64,000 bases of DNA from Patescibacteria group bacterium. GTDB taxonomy: Bacteria; Patescibacteriota; Minisyncoccia; Phycocordibacterales; UBA9973. Below are positions 1-55,056 of the stretch, piece after piece. Below the pieces are notes generated by a model, which saw only the letters and a list, made by a program, of their open reading frames with translations, was not told the origin of the DNA and ran no database searches. The DNA lies in contig JBBTYN010000002.1 of the NCBI GenBank assembly GCA_038061755.1, forward strand, positions 15,312-79,311, in the 5' to 3' direction. The position numbers were made by a program, and so were the translations under genes. The first letter of the stretch is position 1. Each line of letters starts with the position of its first letter.

Positions 1-824
1 ATGATATTTTAGAAGCAGAATCTGTGCGTGACATAGAATCCTATCATAAAAATGTTTGGAAAGAAGGAGTTAAAAAAACCCCCTCTAACTCCCCCTTATC
101 AGGTGGAGAAAATAAAGAGGGGGTGGATCGTTTGCCATATATCGTTATTATTATAGACGAGCTAGCAGACATAATGAGTACTTATCCTAGAGAACTCGAA
201 GCCGCAATCGTGCGCTTGGCGCAAATGTCTAGAGCAGTAGGCATACATTTAATACTCTCTACGCAACGCCCTGAGGTAAATATCATTACTGGTTTAATTA
301 AAGCAAACATTCCTGCCCGAGTGGCACTTAAAGTATCTTCACAAATAGATTCACGTACAATACTGGACGCTGGAGGAGCAGAGAAACTTTTAGGCGCTGG
401 TGATATGTTGTATTCTTCAGGTGACGCTCAACCAGAAAGACTGCAAAGCGCATTTATTTCCGAAAATGAAGTTAAAAAAGTTGTAAAATATCTAGCTGAT
501 GCATATAGAGATGAGGTCTCTGAAGAAATAACCCTTACTCCGGGGTCTGTATTAAACGATAAAAGTATTTTTGAAAGCTCTCTAGAAGATATAAATTCTA
601 ATGACGATGACGAAATGTATGAAGAAGCTCGTATTTGTGTAATGGAAGCTGGAAAAGCTTCAACTTCTTATCTTCAAAGAAAATTAAAGTTAGGATATGC
701 GCGAGCGGCACGACTAATGGATAAATTGGAAGAACGCGGAGTCATCGGCCCCGGAGATGGCGCAAAACCCAGAGAAGTATTGGAAAAAATAGAACGTACA
801 GAAAATGGAGAAAATATAATTTAA
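1..824 (+). CDS. ftsK: DNA translocase FtsK/SpoIIIE, C-terminal part (open to window start)
   Basis: Frame is open from nt 1. Walker B-like LPYIVIIIDELAD, STQRP motif, C-terminal winged-helix gamma domain (YLQRKLKLGYARAARLMDKLEERGVI). Confidence 0.8.
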   Translation, partial: DILEAESVRDIESYHKNVWKEGVKKTPSNSPLSGGENKEGVDRLPYIVIIIDELADIMSTYPRELEAAIVRLAQMSRAVGIHLILSTQRPEVNIITGLIKANIPARVALKVSSQIDSRTILDAGGAEKLLGAGDMLYSSGDAQPERLQSAFISENEVKKVVKYLADAYRDEVSEEITLTPGSVLNDKSIFESSLEDINSNDDDEMYEEARICVMEAGKASTSYLQRKLKLGYARAARLMDKLEERGVIGPGDGAKPREVLEKIERTENGENII

Positions 825-851: not shown

Positions 852-1220
852 TTGCCTTTAATAAAAATGAACCAGAATACTAAAAAAATAATTAAAATAG
901 GAGGCTTCTCTGTTTTTTTTATTTTTATTATTATTTATGCAATTTTTGGGTCTAAAGATTTAATCTTTGGGGTAAAAATTAAAAATGTAAATCTAGTGGA
1001 TGGTGCTACGGTAACAGACAATATAATAAAACTGACTGGTAATGCAAAAAATGCAATAAATTTAACATTAGACGGACGGAAAATTTCAGTAGATGAGCAA
1101 GGCAACTTTAGTGAAATAATTGCGCTTCTTTCAGGATATAATATAATCAATATCAAAGCAGAAGATAAATTTGGCTATGTTGATGAAAAAAATTATAAAA
1201 TAATGTATCTACAAAAATAA
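852..1220 (+). CDS. hypothetical small membrane-anchored protein
   Basis: 122-aa ORF with N-terminal hydrophobic segment (FSVFFIFIIIYAIF). No recognisable motif. Confidence 0.35.
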   Translation: MPLIKMNQNTKKIIKIGGFSVFFIFIIIYAIFGSKDLIFGVKIKNVNLVDGATVTDNIIKLTGNAKNAINLTLDGRKISVDEQGNFSEIIALLSGYNIINIKAEDKFGYVDEKNYKIMYLQK

Positions 1221-1233
1221 TTTTTCTTTTTGA

Positions 1234-1272
1234 AAGGTCCTCGGTTCTCTGGGTCCCTATCCCAGCCAGACC
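1234..1272 (+). promoter_or_regulatory. Conserved 36-38 nt element (copy 1) 40 nt upstream of recA; contains hairpin CTGGG-TCCCTAT-CCCAG
   Basis: AGGTCCTCGGTTCTCTGGGTCCCTATCCCAGCCAGAC matches reverse complement of 34129..34166 exactly. Same orientation relative to downstream gene in both copies. Confidence 0.5.
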
Positions 1273-1311
1273 ATTTCAAAAAGTAAAATTATTTAAGTAG
1301 ATTAAAAAAGT

Positions 1312-2382
1312 ATGATAAAGAAAAAAGAGAAAAAAGAAGACAAGACTGTGGGTGGAGATGCTTCTGTGTTAAATGATACATTAAAAGCCATTCAAACAAA
1401 ATTTGGAGAAGGTTCAATAATGAAATTTGGTAATGCGCCAAAAGTGGACATCAATGTCATACCGACTGGTTCTATTGGACTTGATATGGCGCTCGGTGTT
1501 GGAGGAATACCACGTGGAAGAATTATTGAAATTTTTGGTCCAGAATCTTCAGGTAAAACCACACTATCCCTCCATATCGTCGCTGAAGCGCAAAAAAAAG
1601 GAGGAATTTGCGCCTACATAGATGCTGAACACGCAATGGATCCAGATTATACAAAAAAACTGGGAGTAAATATAAATGACTTGCTGATTTCTCAACCAGA
1701 CAATGGCGAGCAAGCGCTAGAGATCGTAGAGAGTTTGGTGCGAACGGGAAAAATTGATGTCATTGTAGTAGACTCCGTCGCCGCACTTACTCCTAAAGAT
1801 GAAATAGAAGGTGATATGGGAGCATATCATGTCGGCAAGCAAGCACGCTTGATGTCGCAAGCCCTTCGTAAATTAACAGCCATTGTTGCCCGATCAAAGA
1901 CCGTGGTTATTTTTATAAATCAAATCCGAATGCAAATCGGAGTAATGTTTGGCAACCCAGAAACTACTCCAGGAGGAAAAGCGTTAAAATTTTATACTTC
2001 AGTTCGGCTTGATATTCGAAAAATCGCTCAAATAAAAAAGGGAGAAGAAGTTGTGGGTTCACGTACTCGCGTCAAAGTCGTTAAAAATAAAGTAGCCGCG
2101 CCATTCAAGCAAACGGAATTTGATATTATTTATAACGAAGGTATTTCCAAAGAAGGAGAAATAATGGCTTTAGGAGAGAAATTTAAAATTATAGAAAAAA
2201 GCGGAAATTCATATTTTTACTTACCCGCCATAGCTTCAGCGAAGGCAGGTGTGACAGAGAGTTCGGAGAAAGTAAAATTAGGCGTAGGTTACGATGCTAC
2301 TCGTAAATTCTTAAAAGAGGAAAAGAAAATTTCTGAACAAATCTTAAAAGAAATTAAAAAAAAGTTTGCCGAAGAAGCTTAA
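1312..2382 (+). CDS. recA: Recombinase RecA
   Basis: [36 protein letters not shown] Walker A/RecA signature; full-length 356 aa. Confidence 0.93.
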
Positions 2383-10198: not shown

Positions 10199-11614
10199 TT
10201 ATATCTTCTCTTTTATATAATTTTTTAAATCTGTCACTTTTACTCTCTCTTGCTTTCCTGTGTCACGGTCGCGGACAGTAACTGTGTCATCTGTCAGCGT
10301 ATCAAAATCAACTACAATACAAAATGGCGTGCCAATTTCATCCTGGCGACGATAACGCTTACCAATATTACCATTGTCATCAAATTCACAAATAATTTCT
10401 TTACGAAGCATTTCAAAAACTTCTCGGGCTTTTGACACAAGCTCTGGCTTGTTTTTTAGAAGCGGAAAAACAGCGCATTTGATTGGAGAAAGTCTTGGAT
10501 CAAGTTTTAGAAATACCCTAGTTTCACTTTCTTTTAATTCTTCTGTATAAGCGTTATCCAAAAACATTAAAAACAATCGAGCCAAGCCAACAGACGTCTC
10601 CATAATGTGTGGAATAAATCTTTCTTTACTTTCTTCATCATAATAATCTAGTGCGACGCCTGAAAATTTTGAATGTTGTGATAAATCCCAATCCCCTCGA
10701 GCATGAATGCCTTCTACTTCTTTAAAACTACCTCCAAAAAAATCAAAAGCATATTCGACATCGTAGGCCTCACTCGCATAGTGCGCTAATTTTTCATGTT
10801 TATACCATCTTATTTTTTCTTTTGGAATACCATATTTTAGATACCAATCCCATCGTGTTTTTTTCCAGTTTTCATACAATTCTTTTGTCTGTGACTTATG
10901 ATGAAAATACTGCATTTCCATTTGTTCAAATTCCCGTGTTCTAAAGATAAATTGACGAGCAGCAACTTCATTTCTAAATGCTTTACCTACTTGCGCTATA
11001 CCAAAAGGCAGCTTGGGGTGCAGAGAATCAAGAGTATTTTTATATTCTAAATAAATACCACCACAGGTTTCTGGTCTTAAATACATAACATTCTCTTCAG
11101 TTAAAACATCTACAGGTGAACCAAGGTTCGACTTAACCATGAGGGAAAAAGATCTTGCCGGGGTAAGATCTGCTGATTTACAATTTGGACAAATAAGCTT
11201 CTTCTCTGCTCTTAACTTATCAAGTTCTTTATTTAAAAAATCAAGAGGCATTTTATCAGCAACAATCCCAAAACTTTCCAAAATATGATCAGCTCGAAAT
11301 CTTGATTTACAATTTTTACAGTCTATTTGTGGATCGTTAAATCCACCGACATGACCGGAAGCCACCCATGTTTGTGAATGCATAAATATTGCGCTGTCCA
11401 AACCATAAACATCATCGCGAAGTTGAACCATCTCTTTAATCCATGCATTTTTTATATTTTCTTTTAAAAGAGTTCCATAATGACCATAGTCATACACGCC
11501 AGCAACCCCACCATATATTTCAGAAGAAGGATATACAAACCCACGCCTTTTACAAAGCGAAACTATTTTCTCCATTAAATTATCTTTATTATCTTTTTTG
11601 TTTTTTTCTTTCAT
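10199..11614 (-). CDS. glyQS: Glycyl-tRNA synthetase (alpha2 type)
   Basis: N-terminal RRGFVYPSSEIYGGVAGVYDYGHYG, class II motifs, C-terminal anticodon-binding domain. Confidence 0.9.
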   Translation of the reverse strand: MKEKNKKDNKDNLMEKIVSLCKRRGFVYPSSEIYGGVAGVYDYGHYGTLLKENIKNAWIKEMVQLRDDVYGLDSAIFMHSQTWVASGHVGGFNDPQIDCKNCKSRFRADHILESFGIVADKMPLDFLNKELDKLRAEKKLICPNCKSADLTPARSFSLMVKSNLGSPVDVLTEENVMYLRPETCGGIYLEYKNTLDSLHPKLPFGIAQVGKAFRNEVAARQFIFRTREFEQMEMQYFHHKSQTKELYENWKKTRWDWYLKYGIPKEKIRWYKHEKLAHYASEAYDVEYAFDFFGGSFKEVEGIHARGDWDLSQHSKFSGVALDYYDEESKERFIPHIMETSVGLARLFLMFLDNAYTEELKESETRVFLKLDPRLSPIKCAVFPLLKNKPELVSKAREVFEMLRKEIICEFDDNGNIGKRYRRQDEIGTPFCIVVDFDTLTDDTVTVRDRDTGKQERVKVTDLKNYIKEKI

Positions 11615-14190: not shown

Positions 14191-17100
14191 TTATCTTTTC
14201 TCAATTTTTACCTTAAAAACTAACTCATCTATTTTTATCTCTTGCCATGAGTTTATCGAAGGGTCTTGTCCATCATTTTCTTTAAATTCTATTTTGGAAA
14301 CTAGCACTGTCTTTTTCATGTCATTTTCAAATTTTTGAATTAATTTTTTACCTGCATCATTGGTTTCGAAAACAATTGAGATAACATGACTTGGAGTAAG
14401 ACCAATCTTTTTTCTCATATCCTGCAAAGCACGCACAAGCTCGCGATAATCTCCTTCTTGTTTTAAATCTTTTGTAATATCTGTATCGAGACTTACTTTA
14501 TTAATGCCCATTTTTATTTTTAAAATATAAACAATATTTTTGATATTTAATTCATTTTTTATTATCTCAATATATTGGTCAGACAATTTTTCAGCAATAA
14601 TTTCTAGCTTATTTAATGGTTGACGAACTTTAATACCAGCTTTCTGTCGAGCTTCCAAACCAAGGGTTACAACACTTCTAACTGTTTCCATCTTCTCTAA
14701 AACTTTCGGTTCAAAAAACGAAAAAATTTTAAATTTTTTCGTTGGCCAACTCGCCAAATGCACACTCTCTCTGTCATCTTCATTCTTTAATCGTAGCCAA
14801 ATATTTTCTGAAGTAAATGGTGCAAAAGGGGCTAAAAGTTTTGTAAGAGTTTTTAGCACAAAATATAAAGTTTCTTTTGCTTCTTTTTCTCCATTCTTAA
14901 TTCTGTCGCGAGAACGACGCAAATACCACGTAGAAAGATCTCCAATAAAATCTTTTATTGCTCTGACTGGCTCAAGCAACTTATAATCATCCATTTTTTT
15001 TGTGGATTCACTAATTAATTCGTCTAGTCGCGCCAAAATCCATTTATCTAAAATATTTTTAGAATTTGGCTGATTATTTGTCTCTAAATTTTTATCTCTG
15101 TAAAGCTCGTAAAAAATAAGTACATTATAAAGCAAACCAAAAACTTGTTGATGAAGTAAGGCAACAGTTTTTTCATCAAAATTTTTAGATTCTCCTGGCT
15201 GATTGACCGAATACATCCAAAGACGAAGAGTATCAACACCATATTTATCCATTGCTTCCCATGGATCAACAATATTGCCGAGAGATTTAGACATTTTCTT
15301 GCCTACAGCATCCATCAAGTGCCCGAGACAAATTACATTTTTGTATGCCTTATTTCTCCCCATAAGTATTCCAACGGCATGCAAGGTATAAAACCACCCG
15401 CGAGTCTGATCTATCGCTTCTGAAATAAAATCTGCAGGATAATTAATTTTTTTAACTGAAAATGGATAATGATCTTGCGCAAATGGCATACACCCAGAAT
15501 CAAACCAAACGTCCATCACCTCTTTGGTGCGTGTTAATTTTCCGTCGCAACTACAAACAAGATTAATTTCATCAATATAAGGTTTATGTAGATCCATCTG
15601 ACCACCACTATTTCTAGGCAACTGTAAAAAACCACATTGAAAAACTTCTGCATTCTGAATAACTGGATATTTAGTATTTAAATTATTTAATTCTTGCTTT
15701 ATACTTAAAGCTTCATAAGAAGACAACAAAAGACGAATTGGATATTCATGAGATATAATCAAAATATTTTTTCCAGAATATTTTTGCTCTAAATCTTGTA
15801 GAACATAAATCATCCTTTTTCGAACATCTTCATCTGTTTCTTTAGATATTACTACTTCAGACTCTCGTAATCCCTTGTTTATAATAACTTGATCTTTAGT
15901 AAATCCAAAAGTATTAGCTATAATTTCTGCTGTTTGTTTTGTTCTGGTAAAATTTGAAGATATAATAACATCTGGCTTGAATTTTAAGCTTTTTGACATT
16001 AACCTGACTTGTTCTCTACCTTCTTCTGTTAAAGCATCATTATCCTCACCAGGATTAAAACTCTCCACATTTTTTATATTAGCAAGAGAACCTCCATGTC
16101 GCATCACAAAATATTTATTTCCTGACTTTTTTGTTTTATTTTTTAGGTCTTCAATACTTCCAATAACATCAATTTTTTTACAAGACTCACAGATCCAAAC
16201 TGGAAGCGGGGTACCCCAATATCGCTCACGAGAAATTGCCCAATCTTTTATCTCCCTTAACCATTCACCAAAACGTCCGTCACGAATATGCGCCGGTTCC
16301 CATTTTATTCCTTTATTCTCTTCTATCATCTTCGCTTTTATTTTTGAATCGGAAACTTTTATATACCAAGAATCTCGAGCATAATAGATAAGCGCCGTAT
16401 GGCAACGCCAACAATGAGGATATGAGTGTTCATATTTTTCTTTTTTAAATAAAAGTCCCCTATGCGCTAAATCTTTTATCACGTCTACAGCCACATCTTC
16501 ATCTCGTACAAATCTGCCTTCAAACATCCCTGTACCTAATAAAAATTTTCCATCAAGCCCGACAATGTGATGCTTTGGCAAACCAATCTTTGTCCCAAGT
16601 TCAAAATCATCCTGTCCATACATTACTGCTGTATGCACAACTCCCGTGCCGTCTTCAGTCGTCACAAAATCCGCTCCGTAAACCTTAAAAGCTTTTTTTA
16701 ATTTATATTTCTCGCTTTCAGAAATTGTATTTTGAAGATAAGGATAAAGTGGTTCGTATTCTAAACCGATTAAATCTTTACCTTTAATTTCTTTAACTAT
16801 TTTATATTCTCCGTCTATTGCAGAAAGTCTTTCTTTAGCTAAAATTAAAAATTCTTTTTCTATTTTTATTTTTATATAAATAATATCTTTTCCTACAGCC
16901 AAAGCAACATTTCCAGGCAAAGTCCACGGAGTTGTCGTCCAAGCAAGAATATAAGTACTGGTGGAAATGTTACTTTTGCAGGGTGTCTCGCAGGCTGACG
17001 AGCCGAGAGGCAGCGCTGTGTCAGCAGACACAGACAGCGACCCTGCAGAAGTAACATTTCCGCCAGTTACTCGAAACTTCACATACACTGACAAATCTTT

Positions 17101-17718
17101 CACATCTTCATATCCTTGCGCAAGTTCGTGCGAAGATAAAACCGTGCCACAGCGTGGACACCAAGGCACTACTTTATAATCTTTATAAAGTAAATTTTGT
17201 TCATTTATTTTTTTTACAACATTCCAAACAGATTCAATGTAATCATTATGATAAGTGACATATGCATTTTCTTGATCCACCCAATATCCAATCCGATGGG
17301 TAAACTTATTCCAAATATCTAAATATTCCCAGACACTTTCTTTACATTCTTGATTAAATTTCGCTACACCATATTCTTCAATCGCTTTTTTAGAATTAAG
17401 CCCAAGCTTTTTTTCTACCTGCAATTCTACCGGTAATCCATGCGTATCCCATCCACCTTTTCGGCGAACATGAAAACCCTGCATAGTTTTATATCGAGGA
17501 ATTGCATCTTTAAATGCTCGAGCTTCCAAATGATGAATTCCCGGCTTGCCGTTCGCTGTCGGTGGACCTTCATAAAAAACAAACTCCCCTTTAGGTGAAT
17601 CTTTTTCTAGAGATTTTAAAAAAGTTTTATTTTCTTTCCAAAATTCTAAAATCCGCTCTTCGCGAAGAGCTGCATCACTTTTTTTGTTAGAATTTTCTTT
17701 CTGAACTTCCTTGGCCAT
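14191..17718 (-). CDS. ileS: Isoleucyl-tRNA synthetase carrying an inserted histidine-phosphatase-like domain
   Basis: HHLEAR (HIGH), WTTTPWTLPGN, KMSKSLGN. About 165-aa insert with RHG...SHE motifs between the zinc-knuckle region and DLHKPYID. Confidence 0.9.
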   Translation of the reverse strand: MAKEVQKENSNKKSDAALREERILEFWKENKTFLKSLEKDSPKGEFVFYEGPPTANGKPGIHHLEARAFKDAIPRYKTMQGFHVRRKGGWDTHGLPVELQVEKKLGLNSKKAIEEYGVAKFNQECKESVWEYLDIWNKFTHRIGYWVDQENAYVTYHNDYIESVWNVVKKINEQNLLYKDYKVVPWCPRCGTVLSSHELAQGYEDVKDLSVYVKFRVTGGNVTSAGSLSVSADTALPLGSSACETPCKSNISTSTYILAWTTTPWTLPGNVALAVGKDIIYIKIKIEKEFLILAKERLSAIDGEYKIVKEIKGKDLIGLEYEPLYPYLQNTISESEKYKLKKAFKVYGADFVTTEDGTGVVHTAVMYGQDDFELGTKIGLPKHHIVGLDGKFLLGTGMFEGRFVRDEDVAVDVIKDLAHRGLLFKKEKYEHSYPHCWRCHTALIYYARDSWYIKVSDSKIKAKMIEENKGIKWEPAHIRDGRFGEWLREIKDWAISRERYWGTPLPVWICESCKKIDVIGSIEDLKNKTKKSGNKYFVMRHGGSLANIKNVESFNPGEDNDALTEEGREQVRLMSKSLKFKPDVIISSNFTRTKQTAEIIANTFGFTKDQVIINKGLRESEVVISKETDEDVRKRMIYVLQDLEQKYSGKNILIISHEYPIRLLLSSYEALSIKQELNNLNTKYPVIQNAEVFQCGFLQLPRNSGGQMDLHKPYIDEINLVCSCDGKLTRTKEVMDVWFDSGCMPFAQDHYPFSVKKINYPADFISEAIDQTRGWFYTLHAVGILMGRNKAYKNVICLGHLMDAVGKKMSKSLGNIVDPWEAMDKYGVDTLRLWMYSVNQPGESKNFDEKTVALLHQQVFGLLYNVLIFYELYRDKNLETNNQPNSKNILDKWILARLDELISESTKKMDDYKLLEPVRAIKDFIGDLSTWYLRRSRDRIKNGEKEAKETLYFVLKTLTKLLAPFAPFTSENIWLRLKNEDDRESVHLASWPTKKFKIFSFFEPKVLEKMETVRSVVTLGLEARQKAGIKVRQPLNKLEIIAEKLSDQYIEIIKNELNIKNIVYILKIKMGINKVSLDTDITKDLKQEGDYRELVRALQDMRKKIGLTPSHVISIVFETNDAGKKLIQKFENDMKKTVLVSKIEFKENDGQDPSINSWQEIKIDELVFKVKIEKR

Positions 17719-32342: not shown

Positions 32343-34073
32343 TTATAATATATTTTCTATTCTTAATCTTAGCTCTTCTCTACCTTTAAATCTAGATAAA
32401 TCAAAAGTAGCCAAAAGATTAACCATTTTCTTTTCTGTGATAGATACATCAAAAGAATCAAAATCAGAAAAAAATGAAATAGCTGTAGCCTTACCAGATA
32501 AATCAGAAAAAATAATTTCTAAATGTTCCTCAGATCCATTTTTGCCAAATTTTTTTATTTTTTCTATCTTAACGTCAGGAAAGAAGAAAATAGGCTTCAA
32601 ATTACCTAAACCAAAAGGTGCGAGCTTTTCTATCTCCTTCCAATTTTTCATATTTACAATACTCAAATTAGATTTGATATCATAATTTGCAACATCTTCT
32701 TTTTTATCTCTTTTTACTTTGTGAAAAGAAAGAGACAGCGCTTCTTCCAAAAAATGAATTTTATCATCATGCACAGTAAATCCTCCTGCAAATTCATGCC
32801 CGCCAAAATCTACAAATGATTCACTATTTTCACTCATCAGCTCCACGACAGAAATTGATCCATCGCTACGACAAGAACCCTTGATACAATCATTTTCATC
32901 TTTTGCCCACACAAAAACAGATTTTTTATATTTATCTGATATTTTTCCTGCCACCAATCCCAAAACTCCGACCTTCCATTCTGGATTACCTATCACAATC
33001 ACATCTTTCATATCTCCCCCTTCTAATTTCTTATCTATGTGTTTATTCACGTCACGCATAATACCTTTCACAATATTTTTTCTTTCATCATTTATTTTTG
33101 ATAAATGATTTACCAATATGCCTGCTTCTACCTCATCTCTCGTAGAAAGAAGTTCATAAGCCCGCATGGGGTCATCCATTCGCGAAGCAGCATTTAATCT
33201 AGGCGTTACCATAAAACAAATATCATCAACTGATAAATATTTTTGCTCAATCTTTATTTTTGCCAAAAGTTTTTGCAAGCCTGGACGAGGAGACTTCTTT
33301 AACACCTTCATCCCAAAATACGCAATAGATCTATTCTCACCAGAAAGCGGAACCATATCAGAAAGTGTTGCTAAGCCAGCCATATCCAGCATCCATTTTT
33401 CACTACCGTTCTTAATACCAAAATATTCGCCATATTTACAGATAAATCCTTGCATAAATTTAAAAACAACACCTGCCCCACAAAGCATTTTTTCTGGGTA
33501 TGATTCCACGGAATCATACGGCGTACCGTCAATTGAAACGCCGCCTGTTTTTGGATTCAAAATTGCATAAGCGCGAGGTAAATCAAAAGAGACAAGCCCA
33601 CCTTCGCTAAAGCTCTGACGAGGCACGTGATGATCAATTATTATCACATCTATACCATCCACTTCTGCTTGCGCCACTTCTGCAAATGCTGTGATTCCTA
33701 AATCAACAGTAATTAAAAGTTTAACATTAGACTTTGCAAATTGTTTAATCGCATCCATATTTAAACCATAACCCTCAGAATTCCTTTGAGGAATATATAC
33801 TTCAAAATTTTTATAATTTATCAATTTAAATAAATCAGTCAAAATAACTGCTCCCGGTATGCCATCACAATCATAGTCAGCATAAATGATTATTTTTTCT
33901 TTATTCTCTATCGCTTCATATAGCCTAACGCAAGCTTTATCCATATCCCGCATCAAAAAAGGATCATGAAAATCTCGCTCATAATCTGGATTGAGAAAAA
34001 TTTCCGCTTGTTCTATATCAACAATACCTCTTTTTTCTAAAAGTGTTCGCAGTAATTCTCCATATCTTTGCAT
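32343..34073 (-). CDS. recJ: Single-stranded-DNA-specific exonuclease RecJ
   Basis: DHH motifs (IIYADYDCDGIPGA, DHH region), DHHA1 domain. Start set at MQRYGELL because the upstream part of the ORF-track ORF is the non-coding conserved element. Confidence 0.85.
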   Translation of the reverse strand: MQRYGELLRTLLEKRGIVDIEQAEIFLNPDYERDFHDPFLMRDMDKACVRLYEAIENKEKIIIYADYDCDGIPGAVILTDLFKLINYKNFEVYIPQRNSEGYGLNMDAIKQFAKSNVKLLITVDLGITAFAEVAQAEVDGIDVIIIDHHVPRQSFSEGGLVSFDLPRAYAILNPKTGGVSIDGTPYDSVESYPEKMLCGAGVVFKFMQGFICKYGEYFGIKNGSEKWMLDMAGLATLSDMVPLSGENRSIAYFGMKVLKKSPRPGLQKLLAKIKIEQKYLSVDDICFMVTPRLNAASRMDDPMRAYELLSTRDEVEAGILVNHLSKINDERKNIVKGIMRDVNKHIDKKLEGGDMKDVIVIGNPEWKVGVLGLVAGKISDKYKKSVFVWAKDENDCIKGSCRSDGSISVVELMSENSESFVDFGGHEFAGGFTVHDDKIHFLEEALSLSFHKVKRDKKEDVANYDIKSNLSIVNMKNWKEIEKLAPFGLGNLKPIFFFPDVKIEKIKKFGKNGSEEHLEIIFSDLSGKATAISFFSDFDSFDVSITEKKMVNLLATFDLSRFKGREELRLRIENIL

Positions 34074-34128
34074 AACTGAAATTTTAACATATAATATAGA
34101 AAGTTTCGCAAAATAAAGTTTTGGAATA

Positions 34129-34166
34129 GTCTGGCTGGGATAGGGACCCAGAGAACCGAGGACCTG
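34129..34166 (-). promoter_or_regulatory. Conserved 36-38 nt element (copy 2) 55 nt upstream of recJ, same orientation as copy 1
   Basis: Reverse complement equals 1234..1271; intergenic between recJ (-) and HIT gene (+). Confidence 0.5.
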
Positions 34167-34182
34167 AGAAAACTTTGATTTT

Positions 34183-34587
34183 GTGAAACTTTCTATGGAA
34201 AACTGTATTTTTTGCAAAATAATAAAAGAAGAAATTCCTTGCATAAAAATTTATGAAAACAAAAACTTTTTATCCTTTTTAGATATACAGCCAGTGTCCG
34301 ATGGACATCTTTTATTGATTCCCAAAAAACACATTGTTTGGATGCAAAACGCTAACGATGAAACAATCTCAGAAATTTTTAAATTATCTAAAAAATTAAT
34401 GCTTGCTATTAAAAAAGGAATCGCGTGTGACTATGTCCAATTATCCATCGTCGGCAAAGATGTTCCACATTTTCATATTCACCTAATTCCAAGATATTTT
34501 AAAGATAGTCTGCCGATGTTCCCAACAAAAAAATACAAAGATAAAGAATCAAATGAAGCTGCCAAAAAAATTATCGGAGCATTTTGA
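34183..34587 (+). CDS. HIT-family (histidine triad) nucleotide hydrolase
   Basis: CIFCKI N-terminus, HFHIHLIP histidine triad. Confidence 0.82.
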   Translation: MKLSMENCIFCKIIKEEIPCIKIYENKNFLSFLDIQPVSDGHLLLIPKKHIVWMQNANDETISEIFKLSKKLMLAIKKGIACDYVQLSIVGKDVPHFHIHLIPRYFKDSLPMFPTKKYKDKESNEAAKKIIGAF

Positions 34588-43555: not shown

Positions 43556-43610
43556 GATACTAGCTGATACTAGCTAGATACTAGCTAGGACAGTCCTCGC
43601 TAGTGGTGTC
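43556..43610. repeat. REP-like palindromic element cluster A (tandem GATACTAGCT x3 plus palindrome CTAGCTAGGACAGTCCTCGCTAG)
   Basis: Read directly; homologous to 44283..44315 and 45337..45391. Confidence 0.8.
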
Positions 43611-44271
43611 AAATAAGATAACTTTCCACAAAATTATTAAAAGATTTAGTGTCTCTAAAATAATCAGGAAAGACTTTTTTATTCAAAATATTGCCCTCTA
43701 GCCTATCGACACCAATATAATCTTGATAACTAGAGTACCTATAAGATTTTAGAAAATCTTTCTTTTCACCAAGTGATTCTTTAATTTTCTTTTCCCAACC
43801 GGGGAATTTTATATCAAGTGAATTAAAATGAATATATGCAAAAAGTTTTCGCATATAAATGTCGTCAGACTTTACACATTTTGATTTAAATGGTCCGCCA
43901 AACAAAGCACCTTGTCTTTGATATTTAATATTAAAAAACATTGAATATCCTGTCCCTAATTTTCTCATAAACTTTGTTATCCCTCCATCCACTTCTTGGC
44001 GTATCATTAAATGAAAATGATTAGTCATCAAACACCATGCGCCTATAAATACTAATGGTTTTCCTTTTTCAATCACCATTATTTCTTCATAACTTTTATG
44101 TAGAATGTTTGTTAAATTGTTGAGCTTTATCACATCTTCATTATTTGCAACATATAAAAGCATTATGAATCTTTCATAATCTTTCTGTAATTTAAAAATA
44201 TTTCTTTTATCAATTCCTCTATTCCAAAGGTGGTAGTATTCACCAGTGACAAAAGGATCTTTTCGCAACAT
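43609..44271 (-). mobile_element. IS200/IS605-family Y1 (HuH) transposase, REP-associated tyrosine transposase (RAYT)-like
   Basis: EYYHLWNRGIDKRNIF, HuH motif LMTNHFHLMI, YQRQGALFGGPFKSKCV...YIHFN; flanked by REP-like palindromes on both sides. Confidence 0.7.
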
Positions 44272-44282
44272 CTATTTAATAT

Positions 44283-44315
44283 AACACACTAGCTAGGACA
44301 GTCCTAGCTAGTGTT
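44283..44315. repeat. REP-like perfect palindrome B
   Basis: AACACACTAGCTAGGAC-A-GTCCTAGCTAGTGTT, 12 nt upstream of the transposase start. Confidence 0.85.
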
Positions 44316-45156: not shown

Positions 45157-45336
45157 CCCGCACCTCCAAAAAATTTTAGATTATTTTATTGTAAAAGGAC
45201 AAAAAACATCCTTTATTGATTGTTTAATGTATTATACTACTTTTCTATTTTAAAGTCAACTACTTAGAAATGTAGGGTAATTTCTGCGTAATTTGTAAAA
45301 AATTATTTATTTTCCAATTTTTCAATGCGAGATTTT

Positions 45337-45391
45337 ACACACTAGCAAGGACAGTCCTAGCTAGCCTTTAGCTAGGATTGTTCTTGCTAGT
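45337..45391. repeat. REP-like element doublet C (two inverted copies)
   Basis: ACACACTAGCAAGGACAGTCCTAGCTAG and TAGCTAGGATTGTTCTTGCTAGT (inverted relative to the first). Confidence 0.75.
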
Positions 45392-53904: not shown

Positions 53905-54960
53905 ATGAAAATAACAGTTAAAAAACTACCTAGAAGTGAAATAGAAATTGAAGGTGAATTGGAAGCAGATATTTTTGAGTCTTATTTTGCAAAGGCTTTA
54001 AAAAAGCTTGGTGAAAATATAAAATTAGATGGATTTAGGAAAGGAAAAGTACCAGAAAATGTAATGCTATCAAACATCCCAGAAATTACTATCTTGGAAG
54101 AAATGGCAGAGATGGCGCTAGGAGAATATTATCCAAAAATTTTAAAAGATGAAAAAATAGATGCAATTGGTCGCCCAGAAATTTCTATTATTAAATTGGC
54201 GCGTAAAAATCCATTAGGTTTTAAAATCAAAACTGCCGTCTTGCCAGAAATAAAACTTCCCGACTATAAAAACATCTCTAAAAAAATAGTAGGAGATATT
54301 ACTGATGCTGAGAAAAATGTTATTGTCTCTAATGAAGATTTGGAAAATACAATAATGGACATTCGCAAATCTCGCGCGCCCAAGGTACACATGGCGGAGC
54401 ATAAACACAAAGAAGGCAAAGAACATGTTCATCCAGAGCCGGAGCTTCCCGAGCTCAATAATGCCTTCGTTCAAGCGTTAGGTCCCTTTAAAGATGTAGA
54501 AGATTTCAAAAATAAGCTTAAAGAAAATATAAAACTAGAAAAAGAAAATCAACAGAAAGAAAAAACGAGATTAAAAATTGTTGAGGAAATAGTAGAAAAT
54601 AGTAAAATGGATTTGCCAGAGATTTTAATTAAAGTTGAATTGGATAAAATTTTATATCGCATGGAATCCGATATCACTCAAATGGGATTAAAGTTTGAAG
54701 ATTATTTGAAACATCTGAATAAAACAAAAGAAGATTTGAAAAAAGAATTTAGAATTGATGCAGAGAAAAAAGCCAAACTCGCTCTGATTTTAAATGAAAT
54801 AGCAAAAGCAGAAAAAATAGAGGCCGACCCAGAACAAGTAGCAAACGAAGTAGCCGCAATTTTGGAACATTACAAAGACGCAGATCCAGAACGCGCCCAA
54901 ATGCACGCCGAAAACGTTCTAACTAACGAAAAAATTTTTCAGTTTCTAGAGAGCCAGTAG
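53905..54960 (+). CDS. tig: Trigger factor (short, His-rich insertion, apparently no PPIase domain)
   Basis: N-terminal ribosome-binding domain with GFRKGKVP signature; C-terminal arm domain. Confidence 0.7.
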   Translation: MKITVKKLPRSEIEIEGELEADIFESYFAKALKKLGENIKLDGFRKGKVPENVMLSNIPEITILEEMAEMALGEYYPKILKDEKIDAIGRPEISIIKLARKNPLGFKIKTAVLPEIKLPDYKNISKKIVGDITDAEKNVIVSNEDLENTIMDIRKSRAPKVHMAEHKHKEGKEHVHPEPELPELNNAFVQALGPFKDVEDFKNKLKENIKLEKENQQKEKTRLKIVEEIVENSKMDLPEILIKVELDKILYRMESDITQMGLKFEDYLKHLNKTKEDLKKEFRIDAEKKAKLALILNEIAKAEKIEADPEQVANEVAAILEHYKDADPERAQMHAENVLTNEKIFQFLESQ

Positions 54961-54963
54961 ATT

Positions 54964-54984
54964 TTCCTCCCCTGATAAGGGGAG
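54964..54984 (+). terminator. Terminator-like hairpin after tig
   Basis: CCTCCCC-TGATAA-GGGGAGG perfect 7-bp stem. Confidence 0.5.
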
Positions 54985-55056
54985 GTTAGGAGGGGTTGTG
55001 TTTTAAAATGAAATAGAAAGAGCAACCCTCAATCTATCTTCAGAATAGAAGAAGTT

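What the first reader, a model, noticed from the sequence alone, without database searches (positions are those of the whole stretch)
34129..34166. Copy 2 of the recA/recJ element; it also corrects the recJ start
The reverse complement equals 1234..1271. It sits in the divergent intergenic region between recJ (-) and a HIT-family gene (+). The ORF-track recJ ORF runs through it (QVLGSLGPYPSQT). That stretch is also non-coding upstream of recA, so recJ most likely starts at MQRYGELL (nt 34073).
Basis: partly seen in the sequence, partly recalled or inferred. Interest (0 to 1): 0.55.

Follow-up and report, generated by a model that had tools for sequence, protein, structure and literature searches.

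The report
Dispersed hairpin insertion element, not regulator
The repeat upstream of recA and recJ is one copy of a small GC-rich hairpin element that is scattered through the genomes of these tiny groundwater bacteria, often sitting in-frame inside essential genes, so it is a selfish-DNA-like insertion and not a shared DNA-repair switch; the corrected recJ start is right.

Summary
A 36-nt GC-rich sequence is identical at 1236-1271(+) and 34129-34164(-), with none expected by chance. The recJ start correction also holds: about 110 of 120 homologues begin MQ(K/R)YGELL, so recJ is 32343-34073(-).

The "recA/recJ element" reading does not hold. The same core, AGGTCCTCGGTTCTC[Y]GGGTCCCTATCCC[R]GCCAGAC, occurs at 23 or more distinct sites in Nomurabacteria-like Patescibacteria. 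It lies in-frame inside cca, ksgA, mnmA, tsaD, smc, uvrD (two sites), uvrC (two sites), a glycerate-kinase-like gene and a class-V aminotransferase gene. It also lies in many intergenic spacers.

Each copy is the tip of a long hairpin. A conserved 55-nt unit (T5, core, A5) is flanked by locus-specific complementary arms with 15-36 predicted pairs. Sites are polymorphic: empty, filled in either orientation, tip deleted or replaced, or occupied by other GC-rich tip families. At orthologous ksgA sites the core is 95-97% identical, the arms about 60% and third codon positions about 45%.

The best reading is a palindromic insertion element like those of Rickettsia, in a new variant and apparently undescribed in this phylum. 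How it moves, and why the tip is so conserved, remain unresolved.

The parts
34129..34165 (-). 37-nt GC-rich core (copy 2), AGGTCCTCGGTTCTCTGGGTCCCTATCCCAGCCAGAC read on the minus strand
   Evidence: Exact match. It is the same core as in 78 copies from 71 metagenome loci.
34119..34173 (-). 55-nt conserved unit: T-run, core and the CATTCAAAAA-like tail
   Evidence: Position-specific conservation of the flanks. nhmmer hit at 34174-34118, E 3e-18.
34096..34196 (.). Whole 101-nt palindrome (the hairpin with locus-specific AT-rich arms). It fills most of the recJ-HIT spacer and abuts the HIT start codon.
   Evidence: Folds. The 25-bp stem was also picked up as a miRNA-precursor-like hairpin in Rfam. 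The whole unit is inverted in L002 and L007 and absent in L006.
32343..34073 (-). recJ coding sequence with the corrected start (576 aa)
   Evidence: N-termini of 120 homologues. Pfam DHH, DHHA1 and RecJ_OB.
34081..34089 (-). Putative extended -10 box (TGTTAAAAT) of recJ, 7 nt from the ATG, which suggests a leaderless mRNA. This is inferred.
   Evidence: Read from the sequence. It is conserved as '..YAKI..M' in over-extended homologue ORFs and in L001, L002, L004 and L006.
34195..34587 (+). HIT-family gene, probably starting at ATG 34195 (130 aa) and not GTG 34183
   Evidence: Pfam HIT. The gene is 130 aa in L001, L002, L004 and L006.
1235..1271 (+). 37-nt core (copy 1), 40 nt upstream of the recA ATG
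1207..1302 (.). Whole 96-nt palindrome of copy 1, with its own arms. It overlaps the stop codon of the upstream gene (852-1220).
   Evidence: Folds (z = -3.1). The orthologous site in L054, L065 and L074 holds the core in the opposite orientation with different arms.
1312..2382 (+). recA
   Evidence: Pfam RecA, E 1e-136.

Best explanation
The sequence is one copy of a low-copy, dispersed, palindromic insertion element family of Nomurabacteria-like Patescibacteria. It is comparable to the Rickettsia palindromic elements.

Shown:
- The conserved part is a 55-nt GC-rich module: T5(C)TC, a 37-nt core with a 4-bp and a 5-bp stem, then CATTC-A5. It forms the apex of a long hairpin.
- The AT-rich arms differ in sequence from locus to locus but are complementary within each locus.
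- Copies sit in intergenic spacers and, with frame kept and no stop codons, inside surface loops of housekeeping proteins, where they appear to be translated as junk loop peptides.
- Sites gain, lose, invert and exchange tips over evolutionary time.

The two copies in this window are intergenic insertions. One lies between a small gene and recA. The other lies between the divergent, probably leaderless, recJ and HIT genes. Their shared position near DNA-repair genes is coincidental. The recJ-side copy merely opens a spurious 57-codon N-terminal extension.

Inferred: propagation acts on hairpin DNA, either by insertion or copying of the tip into the apex of palindromes, or by transposition of whole hairpins whose arms later drift. 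Arm pairing would be kept by arm-to-arm templated correction. The tip would be kept by purifying selection for recognition by an unidentified trans-acting factor, or by recent spread.
For: - Spread: 78 copies in 71 metagenome loci plus relatives, with a near-invariant core. Exact or near-exact copies also occur in species representatives fetched through KsgA, that is, independently of the core.
- In-frame copies: they lie in cca, ksgA, mnmA, tsaD, smc, uvrD (two sites), uvrC (two sites), a DUF4147/MOFRL kinase gene and an Aminotran_5 gene. Conserved motifs stay in the same frame on both sides, and Pfam confirms the gene identities.
- Intergenic copies: after dnaK, pnp, cca and map; and between atpE/atpF, prfB/ftsE, ftsE/ftsX, rnhA/comEC, ftsK/small gene, and a PPase gene/nusA.
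- Hairpin: all 62 distinct copies fold with 15-36 arm pairs. Complementarity score of arms from the same locus is 12.6 against 5.3 for arms from different loci, and 48 of 65 copies exceed the 99th percentile of the different-locus scores. The covariation score is 0.368 against 0.148 in shuffles, reached by 0 of 500 shuffles, and the chosen register is the best one.
- Tip stem: the pair covaries as C-G 37, U-A 26, U-G 1, other 1.
- Insertion polymorphism: this genome's own cca is empty where L030 carries +24 aa. The L006 recJ spacer is empty.
- The ksgA site is empty, filled forward, filled reverse, decayed, or occupied by four other insert families.
- Tip turnover: homologous arms carry unrelated tips in L001 and L004. 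Other variants have the apex deleted or replaced.
- A younger family (fam3) has identical 92-nt copies, arms included, in ksgA and uvrD of this genome. So whole hairpins can be the mobile unit.
- An AlphaFold model of KsgA with the insert has mean pLDDT 81, with the insert (residues 103-120) below 50, between two well-modelled strands.
Against: - No transposase, terminal inverted repeats beyond T5/A5, or target-site duplications were identified for this family.
- No two non-orthologous loci share arms, so recent transposition of whole hairpins is not documented for this family.
- The core is far more conserved at orthologous ksgA sites (0.95-0.97) than the arms (0.6) or third codon positions (0.42-0.48). 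Plain selfish decay does not predict this. It points to a sequence-specific function, or to recent tip spread.
- The 100% identity in the metagenome set is partly ascertainment, because the scan required an exact 21-mer.
- Translation of the inserts is inferred only from preserved frames.
Confidence: 0.75

Rival explanations
1. The conserved tip is a host-level functional site, made of DNA or single-stranded nucleic acid and bound by a conserved protein. Examples would be a site for chromosome organisation, replication or repair. It would have been spread by insertion and is now kept by purifying selection at each locus.
For: At orthologous ksgA sites the core is 0.95-0.97 identical and the near flanks 0.90, against 0.42-0.48 at third codon positions. 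The same core is found in MAGs from several different studies and sampling sites. The tip stem shows a compensatory switch between C-G and U-A in several loci. Arm pairing is maintained.
Against: Sites are freely empty, decayed, inverted, or occupied by unrelated tip families in close relatives. There are only a few intact copies per several hundred kb. No candidate binding protein is known. Placement inside protein loops looks opportunistic.
Confidence: 0.15
2. The element is a cis-regulatory element, either an operator or a 5'-UTR RNA motif, shared by recA and recJ. In that case it would be a DNA-damage regulon signal.
For: Both copies in the window lie 40-55 nt upstream of DNA-repair genes, in the same orientation relative to the gene. 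uvrC and uvrD also carry copies in relatives.
Against: The uvrC and uvrD copies are inside the coding sequence. Most other hosts are unrelated (cca, ksgA, mnmA, tsaD, smc, atp, ftsE and others). Orientation relative to recJ flips in L002 and L007, and relative to recA in L054, L065 and L074. L006 lacks the element. The probable recJ -10 box lies downstream of the element, close to the ATG, so the element would not be in the recJ mRNA. Rfam gives no family.
Confidence: 0.03
3. The element is an intervening sequence that is removed or skipped, such as a hairpin intron, a DNA excision element or a translational bypass. In that case the inserts would never appear in proteins.
For: A stable hairpin brings the two flanks together. 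GC-rich mobile inserts that are bypassed are known in yeast mitochondria (from my own knowledge, not checked here).
Against: All 14 or more independent genic insertions keep the reading frame and lack stop codons, across many orthologues with different arms. Only hydrophilic frames are used, and the one frame containing a stop is never used. Removal would impose no such constraint.
Confidence: 0.05

Closest known systems
Rickettsia palindromic elements (RPEs; Ogata et al. 2000 and 2002, as summarised in PMC10969869)
   Same: Both are dispersed short palindromic repeats that form hairpins. Both insert in-frame into many unrelated housekeeping genes as well as intergenic DNA. Both are tolerated as extra surface peptides, occur as several families per genome, and live in small AT-rich genomes.
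   Different: In RPEs the whole element of about 100-150 bp is conserved and encodes one conserved peptide. Here only a 55-nt tip is conserved and the arms are locus-specific. Copies are used in four reading frames and both orientations. The same sites are re-used by different tip families, and tips are nested or replaceable. There is no sequence relationship, and the phylum (Patescibacteria) is different.
REP / REPIN-RAYT systems and BIMEs
   Same: Both are GC-richer hairpin repeats in which single-stranded hairpin recognition by a HUH tyrosine transposase is the paradigm. Both persist over long periods. A weak RAYT-like gene exists in the window (43609-44271).
   Different: REPs are extragenic, start with GTAG or CGTC, and their arms are the conserved part. 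The RAYT-like gene here is flanked by a different palindrome (CTAGCTAGGACAGTCCTAGCTAG), not by this core.
MITEs
   Same: Both are short, non-coding, non-autonomous-looking dispersed insertions that show presence/absence polymorphism.
   Different: No defined terminal inverted repeats beyond T5/A5 were found, no clear target-site duplication, and no parent insertion sequence.
PARCELs (palindromic amphipathic repeat coding elements; PMC2996958)
   Same: Both are palindromic repeats that are translated within genes.
   Different: PARCELs are tandem and amphipathic and lie in surface proteins. The present elements are single insertions in enzymes.
Small hairpin-loop 'flip-flop' inversions of chloroplast non-coding DNA, and cyanobacterial small dispersed repeats (Elhai 2008). 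Both are recalled from memory; the papers are not held.
   Same: The apex flanked by inverted repeats is inverted between close relatives. Very small repeats are nested in hairpin contexts.
   Different: The taxa are different, and no homology was tested.

Membership tests
RPE-like protein-coding palindromic elements | Dispersed repeat present at many unlinked loci | tested here: met
   23 or more distinct sites.
RPE-like protein-coding palindromic elements | Palindromic, with a predicted stable hairpin | tested here: met
RPE-like protein-coding palindromic elements | In-frame insertion into unrelated conserved ORFs, compatible with the protein fold | tested here: met
   In the KsgA model the insert is a low-confidence loop.
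RPE-like protein-coding palindromic elements | Whole element, arms included, conserved between copies and encoding one conserved peptide | tested here: not met
   The arms are locus-specific. Four frames and both orientations are used. The feature is met only by the separate fam3 family.
MITE | Terminal inverted repeats shared by all copies | tested here: inconclusive
   Only T5/A5 is shared.
MITE | Target-site duplication | tested here: inconclusive
   None is evident at the filled versus empty cca site. A 9-nt direct repeat, TTTCGGAAA, flanks the fam3 copy in uvrD, but the target is itself quasi-palindromic.
MITE | Related autonomous element in the genome | not tested
   No whole genome was available.
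REP/REPIN-RAYT | Extragenic location, a conserved GTAG or CGTC 5' end, and conserved arms flanking the RAYT gene | tested here: not met
   Many copies are intragenic. There is no such tetranucleotide. The RAYT-like gene is flanked by another palindrome.
SOS-type operator / DNA-damage regulon motif | Fixed position and orientation in promoters of repair genes, conserved across relatives | tested here: not met
Curated structured RNA family (Rfam) | Match to a covariance model | tested here: not met
   Searches gave only sub-threshold, generic long-hairpin hits.
Intron / bypass element | Length and content free of reading-frame constraint | tested here: not met
   All genic copies are in-frame and free of stop codons.

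The most novel reading that the evidence does not exclude
The GC-rich tips are independent, sequence-constrained modules that are copied into, or exchanged at, the apex of pre-existing DNA hairpins. This would be 'tip homing' and nesting, a mode of mobility without terminal repeats or target duplications. Alternatively, or in addition, they are recognised by a conserved trans-acting factor, so that a 55-nt insert is held more constant than the essential genes that host it. Either reading would make these hairpins a new kind of genetic element, or a functional punctuation mark, in Patescibacteria genomes.
Probability: 0.25. Interest if true: 0.8.

Novelty: new variant of a known kind. Interest (0 to 1): 0.55.

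Why it matters
Three consequences are practical:
- Gene callers extend or mis-start ORFs through these elements. The 633-aa RecJ is deposited that way.
- Window-scale motif hunting will mistake the elements for regulons.
- Protein alignments of Patescibacteria housekeeping genes are peppered with junk loops derived from them.

There are also biological points. In-frame palindromic insertions had been regarded as a peculiarity of Rickettsia. Finding several such families in free-living or episymbiotic ultra-small bacteria suggests a general route by which reduced AT-rich genomes acquire new protein loops.

These elements have a sharply conserved tip on drifting arms, re-use the same sites, and replace or nest their tips. 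That gives a tractable system for asking how hairpin DNA is recognised, copied and maintained.

Tried and rejected
- Rfam: the gathering-threshold scan of the window and permissive scans of the recJ spacer and of L001 gave only tRNA and chance miRNA-like hairpin hits.
- Intrinsic terminator: rejected, because the T-run lies 5' and the A-run 3' of the stem, and one copy sits between divergent genes.
- Hammerhead-like CUGANGA...GAAA in the L001 insert: no stem II, and no Rfam hit.
- Solo CRISPR repeat, tRNA arm or dif-like site: considered from the sequence only. Nothing supports them.
- Genome-collection scan with a heavily degenerate pattern: it returned 0. This was a false negative, because exact cores are present in that collection.
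- Viral contigs, phage and plasmid collections: no match.
- Arms as inverted duplications of the target: the empty cca allele of this genome holds neither arm, so this origin is not supported at that site.
- Strict orientation bias relative to genes: rejected once reverse in-frame copies were found.
- Wobble test for an mRNA-level hairpin: in sense-oriented genic copies, A.C mismatches outnumber G.T by 47 to 18. So nothing indicates that the sense RNA fold is what is selected. The test is weak, because the copies are not independent.
- RAYT-like gene as the mobiliser: it is only a lead. It has a weak family hit, is flanked by a different palindrome, and has one homologue, in L006.
- Elhai 2008 could not be read.

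Full report
**Observation.** The 36-nt sequence GGTCCTCGGTTCTCTGGGTCCCTATCCCAGCCAGAC occurs exactly at 1236-1271(+) and 34129-34164(-). No match appeared in any of 100 shuffles. Similarity extends to 54 nt at 91%. The window has 34% G+C, so the element is a sharp GC spike. Copy 1 ends 40 nt before the recA ATG at 1312. Copy 2 lies in the 121-nt spacer between recJ(-) and a HIT gene(+).

**recJ start.** The 633-aa ORF reads through the element. However, homologues cover only about 91% of that ORF, and about 110 of the 120 best begin MQ(K/R)YGELL. A 77%-identical relative, L006, has no element and only 39 nt between the two start codons. recJ is therefore 32343-34073(-), 576 aa.
- A conserved TGnTAAAAT lies 7 nt upstream of the ATG in all relatives. 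This suggests a leaderless transcript, which is an inference, and it would place the element upstream of the transcript and outside it.
- HIT most likely starts at ATG 34195, giving 130 aa as in relatives.

**Anatomy.** Each window copy is the apex of a long palindrome: 1207-1302, and 34096-34196. The AT-rich arms of the two copies are unrelated in sequence. The core itself folds as a 4-bp stem (GGTC/GACC), an internal loop, then 2 + 5 bp closed by the loop UCCCUAU.

**Relatives at the recJ site.**
- In L004 the core has CCGGG...CCCGG in place of CTGGG...CCCAG, a compensatory change.
- In L002 and L007 the whole hairpin, including an arm asymmetry, is inverted relative to recJ.
- In L001 homologous arms (23 of 28 nt identical on the left arm) carry an unrelated 68-nt GC-rich tip.

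**Distribution.** A metagenome scan with a 21-nt core pattern returned 71 loci. Together with the window and the relatives fetched earlier, that makes 78 copies.
- The 16 core positions not forced by the pattern are about 99% identical.
- The tip-stem pair is C-G in 40 copies, T-A in 28 and mixed in 2.
- Conservation extends to TTTTT(C)TC on the 5' side and CAT(T/G)C(A)AAAA on the 3' side, then stops.

Many copies lie inside long ORFs, with conserved motifs in frame on both sides (Pfam confirmation):
- CCA-adding enzyme (HDIGKP...[insert]...YTFYGHE)
- KsgA (ILEFDV[insert]YKIIANIPYNIT)
- MnmA
- TsaD
- SMC
- UvrD, two sites
- UvrC, two sites
- a DUF4147/MOFRL kinase
- a class-V aminotransferase

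Forward copies are read as SGPRFSGSLS(R/Q)PDH or (Q/E)VLGS(P/L)GPYP(G/S)QTI. Reverse copies are read as NGLAGIGTQRTEDL or SGRDRDPENRGPE. The hydrophobic forward frame and the one reverse frame containing a stop codon are not used.

Intergenic copies lie after dnaK, pnp, cca and map, and between atpE/atpF, prfB/ftsE, ftsE/ftsX, rnhA/comEC, ftsK/small gene and a PPase gene/nusA. The recA-upstream site is also filled in reverse orientation with other arms in L054, L065 and L074. This is not a DNA-repair regulon.

**Hairpin statistics.**
- All 62 distinct copies fold with 15-36 predicted arm pairs.
- Arms match their own partner far better than the arms of other loci: score 12.6 against 5.3, with 48 of 65 above the 99th percentile.
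- Arms resemble each other only between orthologous loci.
- On a 65-sequence ungapped alignment, the named structure gives 73.5% paired cells against 59.9% in shuffles. It gives 562 double-sided changes against 302 ± 14, and a covariation score of 0.368 against 0.148, reached by 0 of 500 shuffles. The chosen register is the best of the slid versions.

**Insertion polymorphism and turnover.**
- This genome's own cca (conspecific contig L079) is empty where L030 has 24 extra residues. The empty allele contains neither arm.
- 120 KsgA homologues and 58 species representatives were surveyed. At this one loop site the state is one of:
  - empty (9-16 residues);
  - a tiny GCTAGG-CAAGA-CCTAGC-type hairpin;
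  - this element forward or reverse;
  - a version with the apex deleted or replaced;
  - arms without a tip;
  - one of four other GC-rich families.
- This genome's KsgA carries 'family 3'. An identical 92-nt copy of that family, arms included, sits in its uvrD. Whole hairpins can therefore be the mobile unit.
- An AlphaFold model of an insert-bearing KsgA is confident overall (mean pLDDT 81), but below 50 across the insert, between two core strands. This fits a tolerated surface loop.

**What stays unexplained.** At orthologous ksgA sites, mean pairwise identity is 0.95-0.97 for the core, 0.90 for the near flanks and about 0.6 for the arms. It is 0.42-0.48 for third codon positions of the adjacent conserved coding sequence. 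The same holds for the four copies that were not chosen by core sequence. So the tip is either under purifying selection or much younger than its arms.
- Purifying selection would mean recognition by some factor.
- Young tips would mean tips spreading into old hairpins. This is supported by shared arms with different tips, tip-less arms and nested variants.
- Arm complementarity could be kept by selection, or by arm-to-arm templated correction, which is established for quasi-palindromes (from my own knowledge).
- In sense-oriented genic copies A.C mismatches outnumber G.T by 47 to 18. There is therefore no sign that the mRNA-sense fold is the selected entity. This is weak evidence.

**Comparison with known systems.** The closest analogue is the Rickettsia palindromic element (PMC10969869 summarises Ogata 2000 and 2002).
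- Shared features: dispersal, hairpin formation, in-frame insertion, several families per genome.
- Differences: the conserved tip with variable arms, use of several frames and both orientations, site re-use and nesting.
- REP/RAYT features are not met, and MITE features are inconclusive.
- Literature searches found no description of such elements in Patescibacteria. The search is limited to the held library.

**Verdict.** The shared-regulator implication is wrong. The underlying phenomenon is a new variant of a known kind of selfish palindromic insertion, with an unresolved and interesting conservation pattern.

Noticed in passing
window 16957-17067 (inside the ileS ORF 14191-17718, minus strand): A 111-nt near-perfect palindrome (predicted dG -76.7 kcal/mol) has a GC-rich tip containing GGCTGACGAGCC. 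It lies in-frame in isoleucyl-tRNA synthetase, giving the peptide GNVTSAGSLSVSADTALPLGSSACETPCKSNIST. The same 'family 4' occurs in uvrD and ksgA of relatives.
   Followed up: partly
window 72-113 (in the ftsK ORF 24-824) and 54961-55002 (just after the ORF 53905-54960, read as trigger factor from its sequence, no family search): This is another GC-rich repeat, CCCCCTCTAACTCCCCCTTATCAGGTGGAG, here called 'family 5'. It is translated as PSNSPLSGGE in FtsK. The related insert PLLISPLAGGE occupies the KsgA loop in other genomes.
   Followed up: partly
window 43609-44271 (minus strand), with palindromes at 43571-43603, 44279-44311 and 45332-45378: A 220-aa HUH-type protein (NHFHLMI) has a weak, sub-threshold NCBIfam match to REP-associated tyrosine transposase. 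It is flanked by CTAGCTAGGACAGTCCTAGCTAG palindromes. Similar mini-hairpins, (GC)TAGG-CAAGA-CCTA(GC), sit in the KsgA loop of L095, L120 and L125. It is a possible hairpin-DNA enzyme of this genome.
   Followed up: partly
L079 7455-7550 and about 10230-10325 (a conspecific contig): Two identical 92-nt 'family 3' hairpin elements lie in-frame in uvrD and ksgA of the same genome. The uvrD copy is flanked by a 9-nt direct repeat, TTTCGGAAA.
   Followed up: partly
window 34081-34089 and 34183-34197: recJ, and probably HIT, have -10-like boxes only about 4-7 nt from their ATGs and no Shine-Dalgarno sequence. This suggests leaderless mRNAs. HIT probably starts at ATG 34195, not GTG 34183.
   Followed up: partly
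L056 (uvrC) and L068 (uvrD): UvrC of L056 carries one intact core and a second, internally deleted copy (EVLGSLPKDLPDHSKK). UvrD of L068 carries the 'family 2' insert (TLGRSDGNGQRKFSAENFR) twice, plus the core.
   Followed up: no
window 14191-17718 (ileS): The IleRS ORF (1175 aa) appears to hold a histidine-phosphatase (His_Phos_1) domain inserted in the synthetase, as in the L002 relative.
   Followed up: no
tool behaviour: The genome-contig scan with a pattern rich in IUPAC codes returned 0 matches, although matching sequences are in that collection (for example L102, L108, L110, L130).
   Followed up: yes
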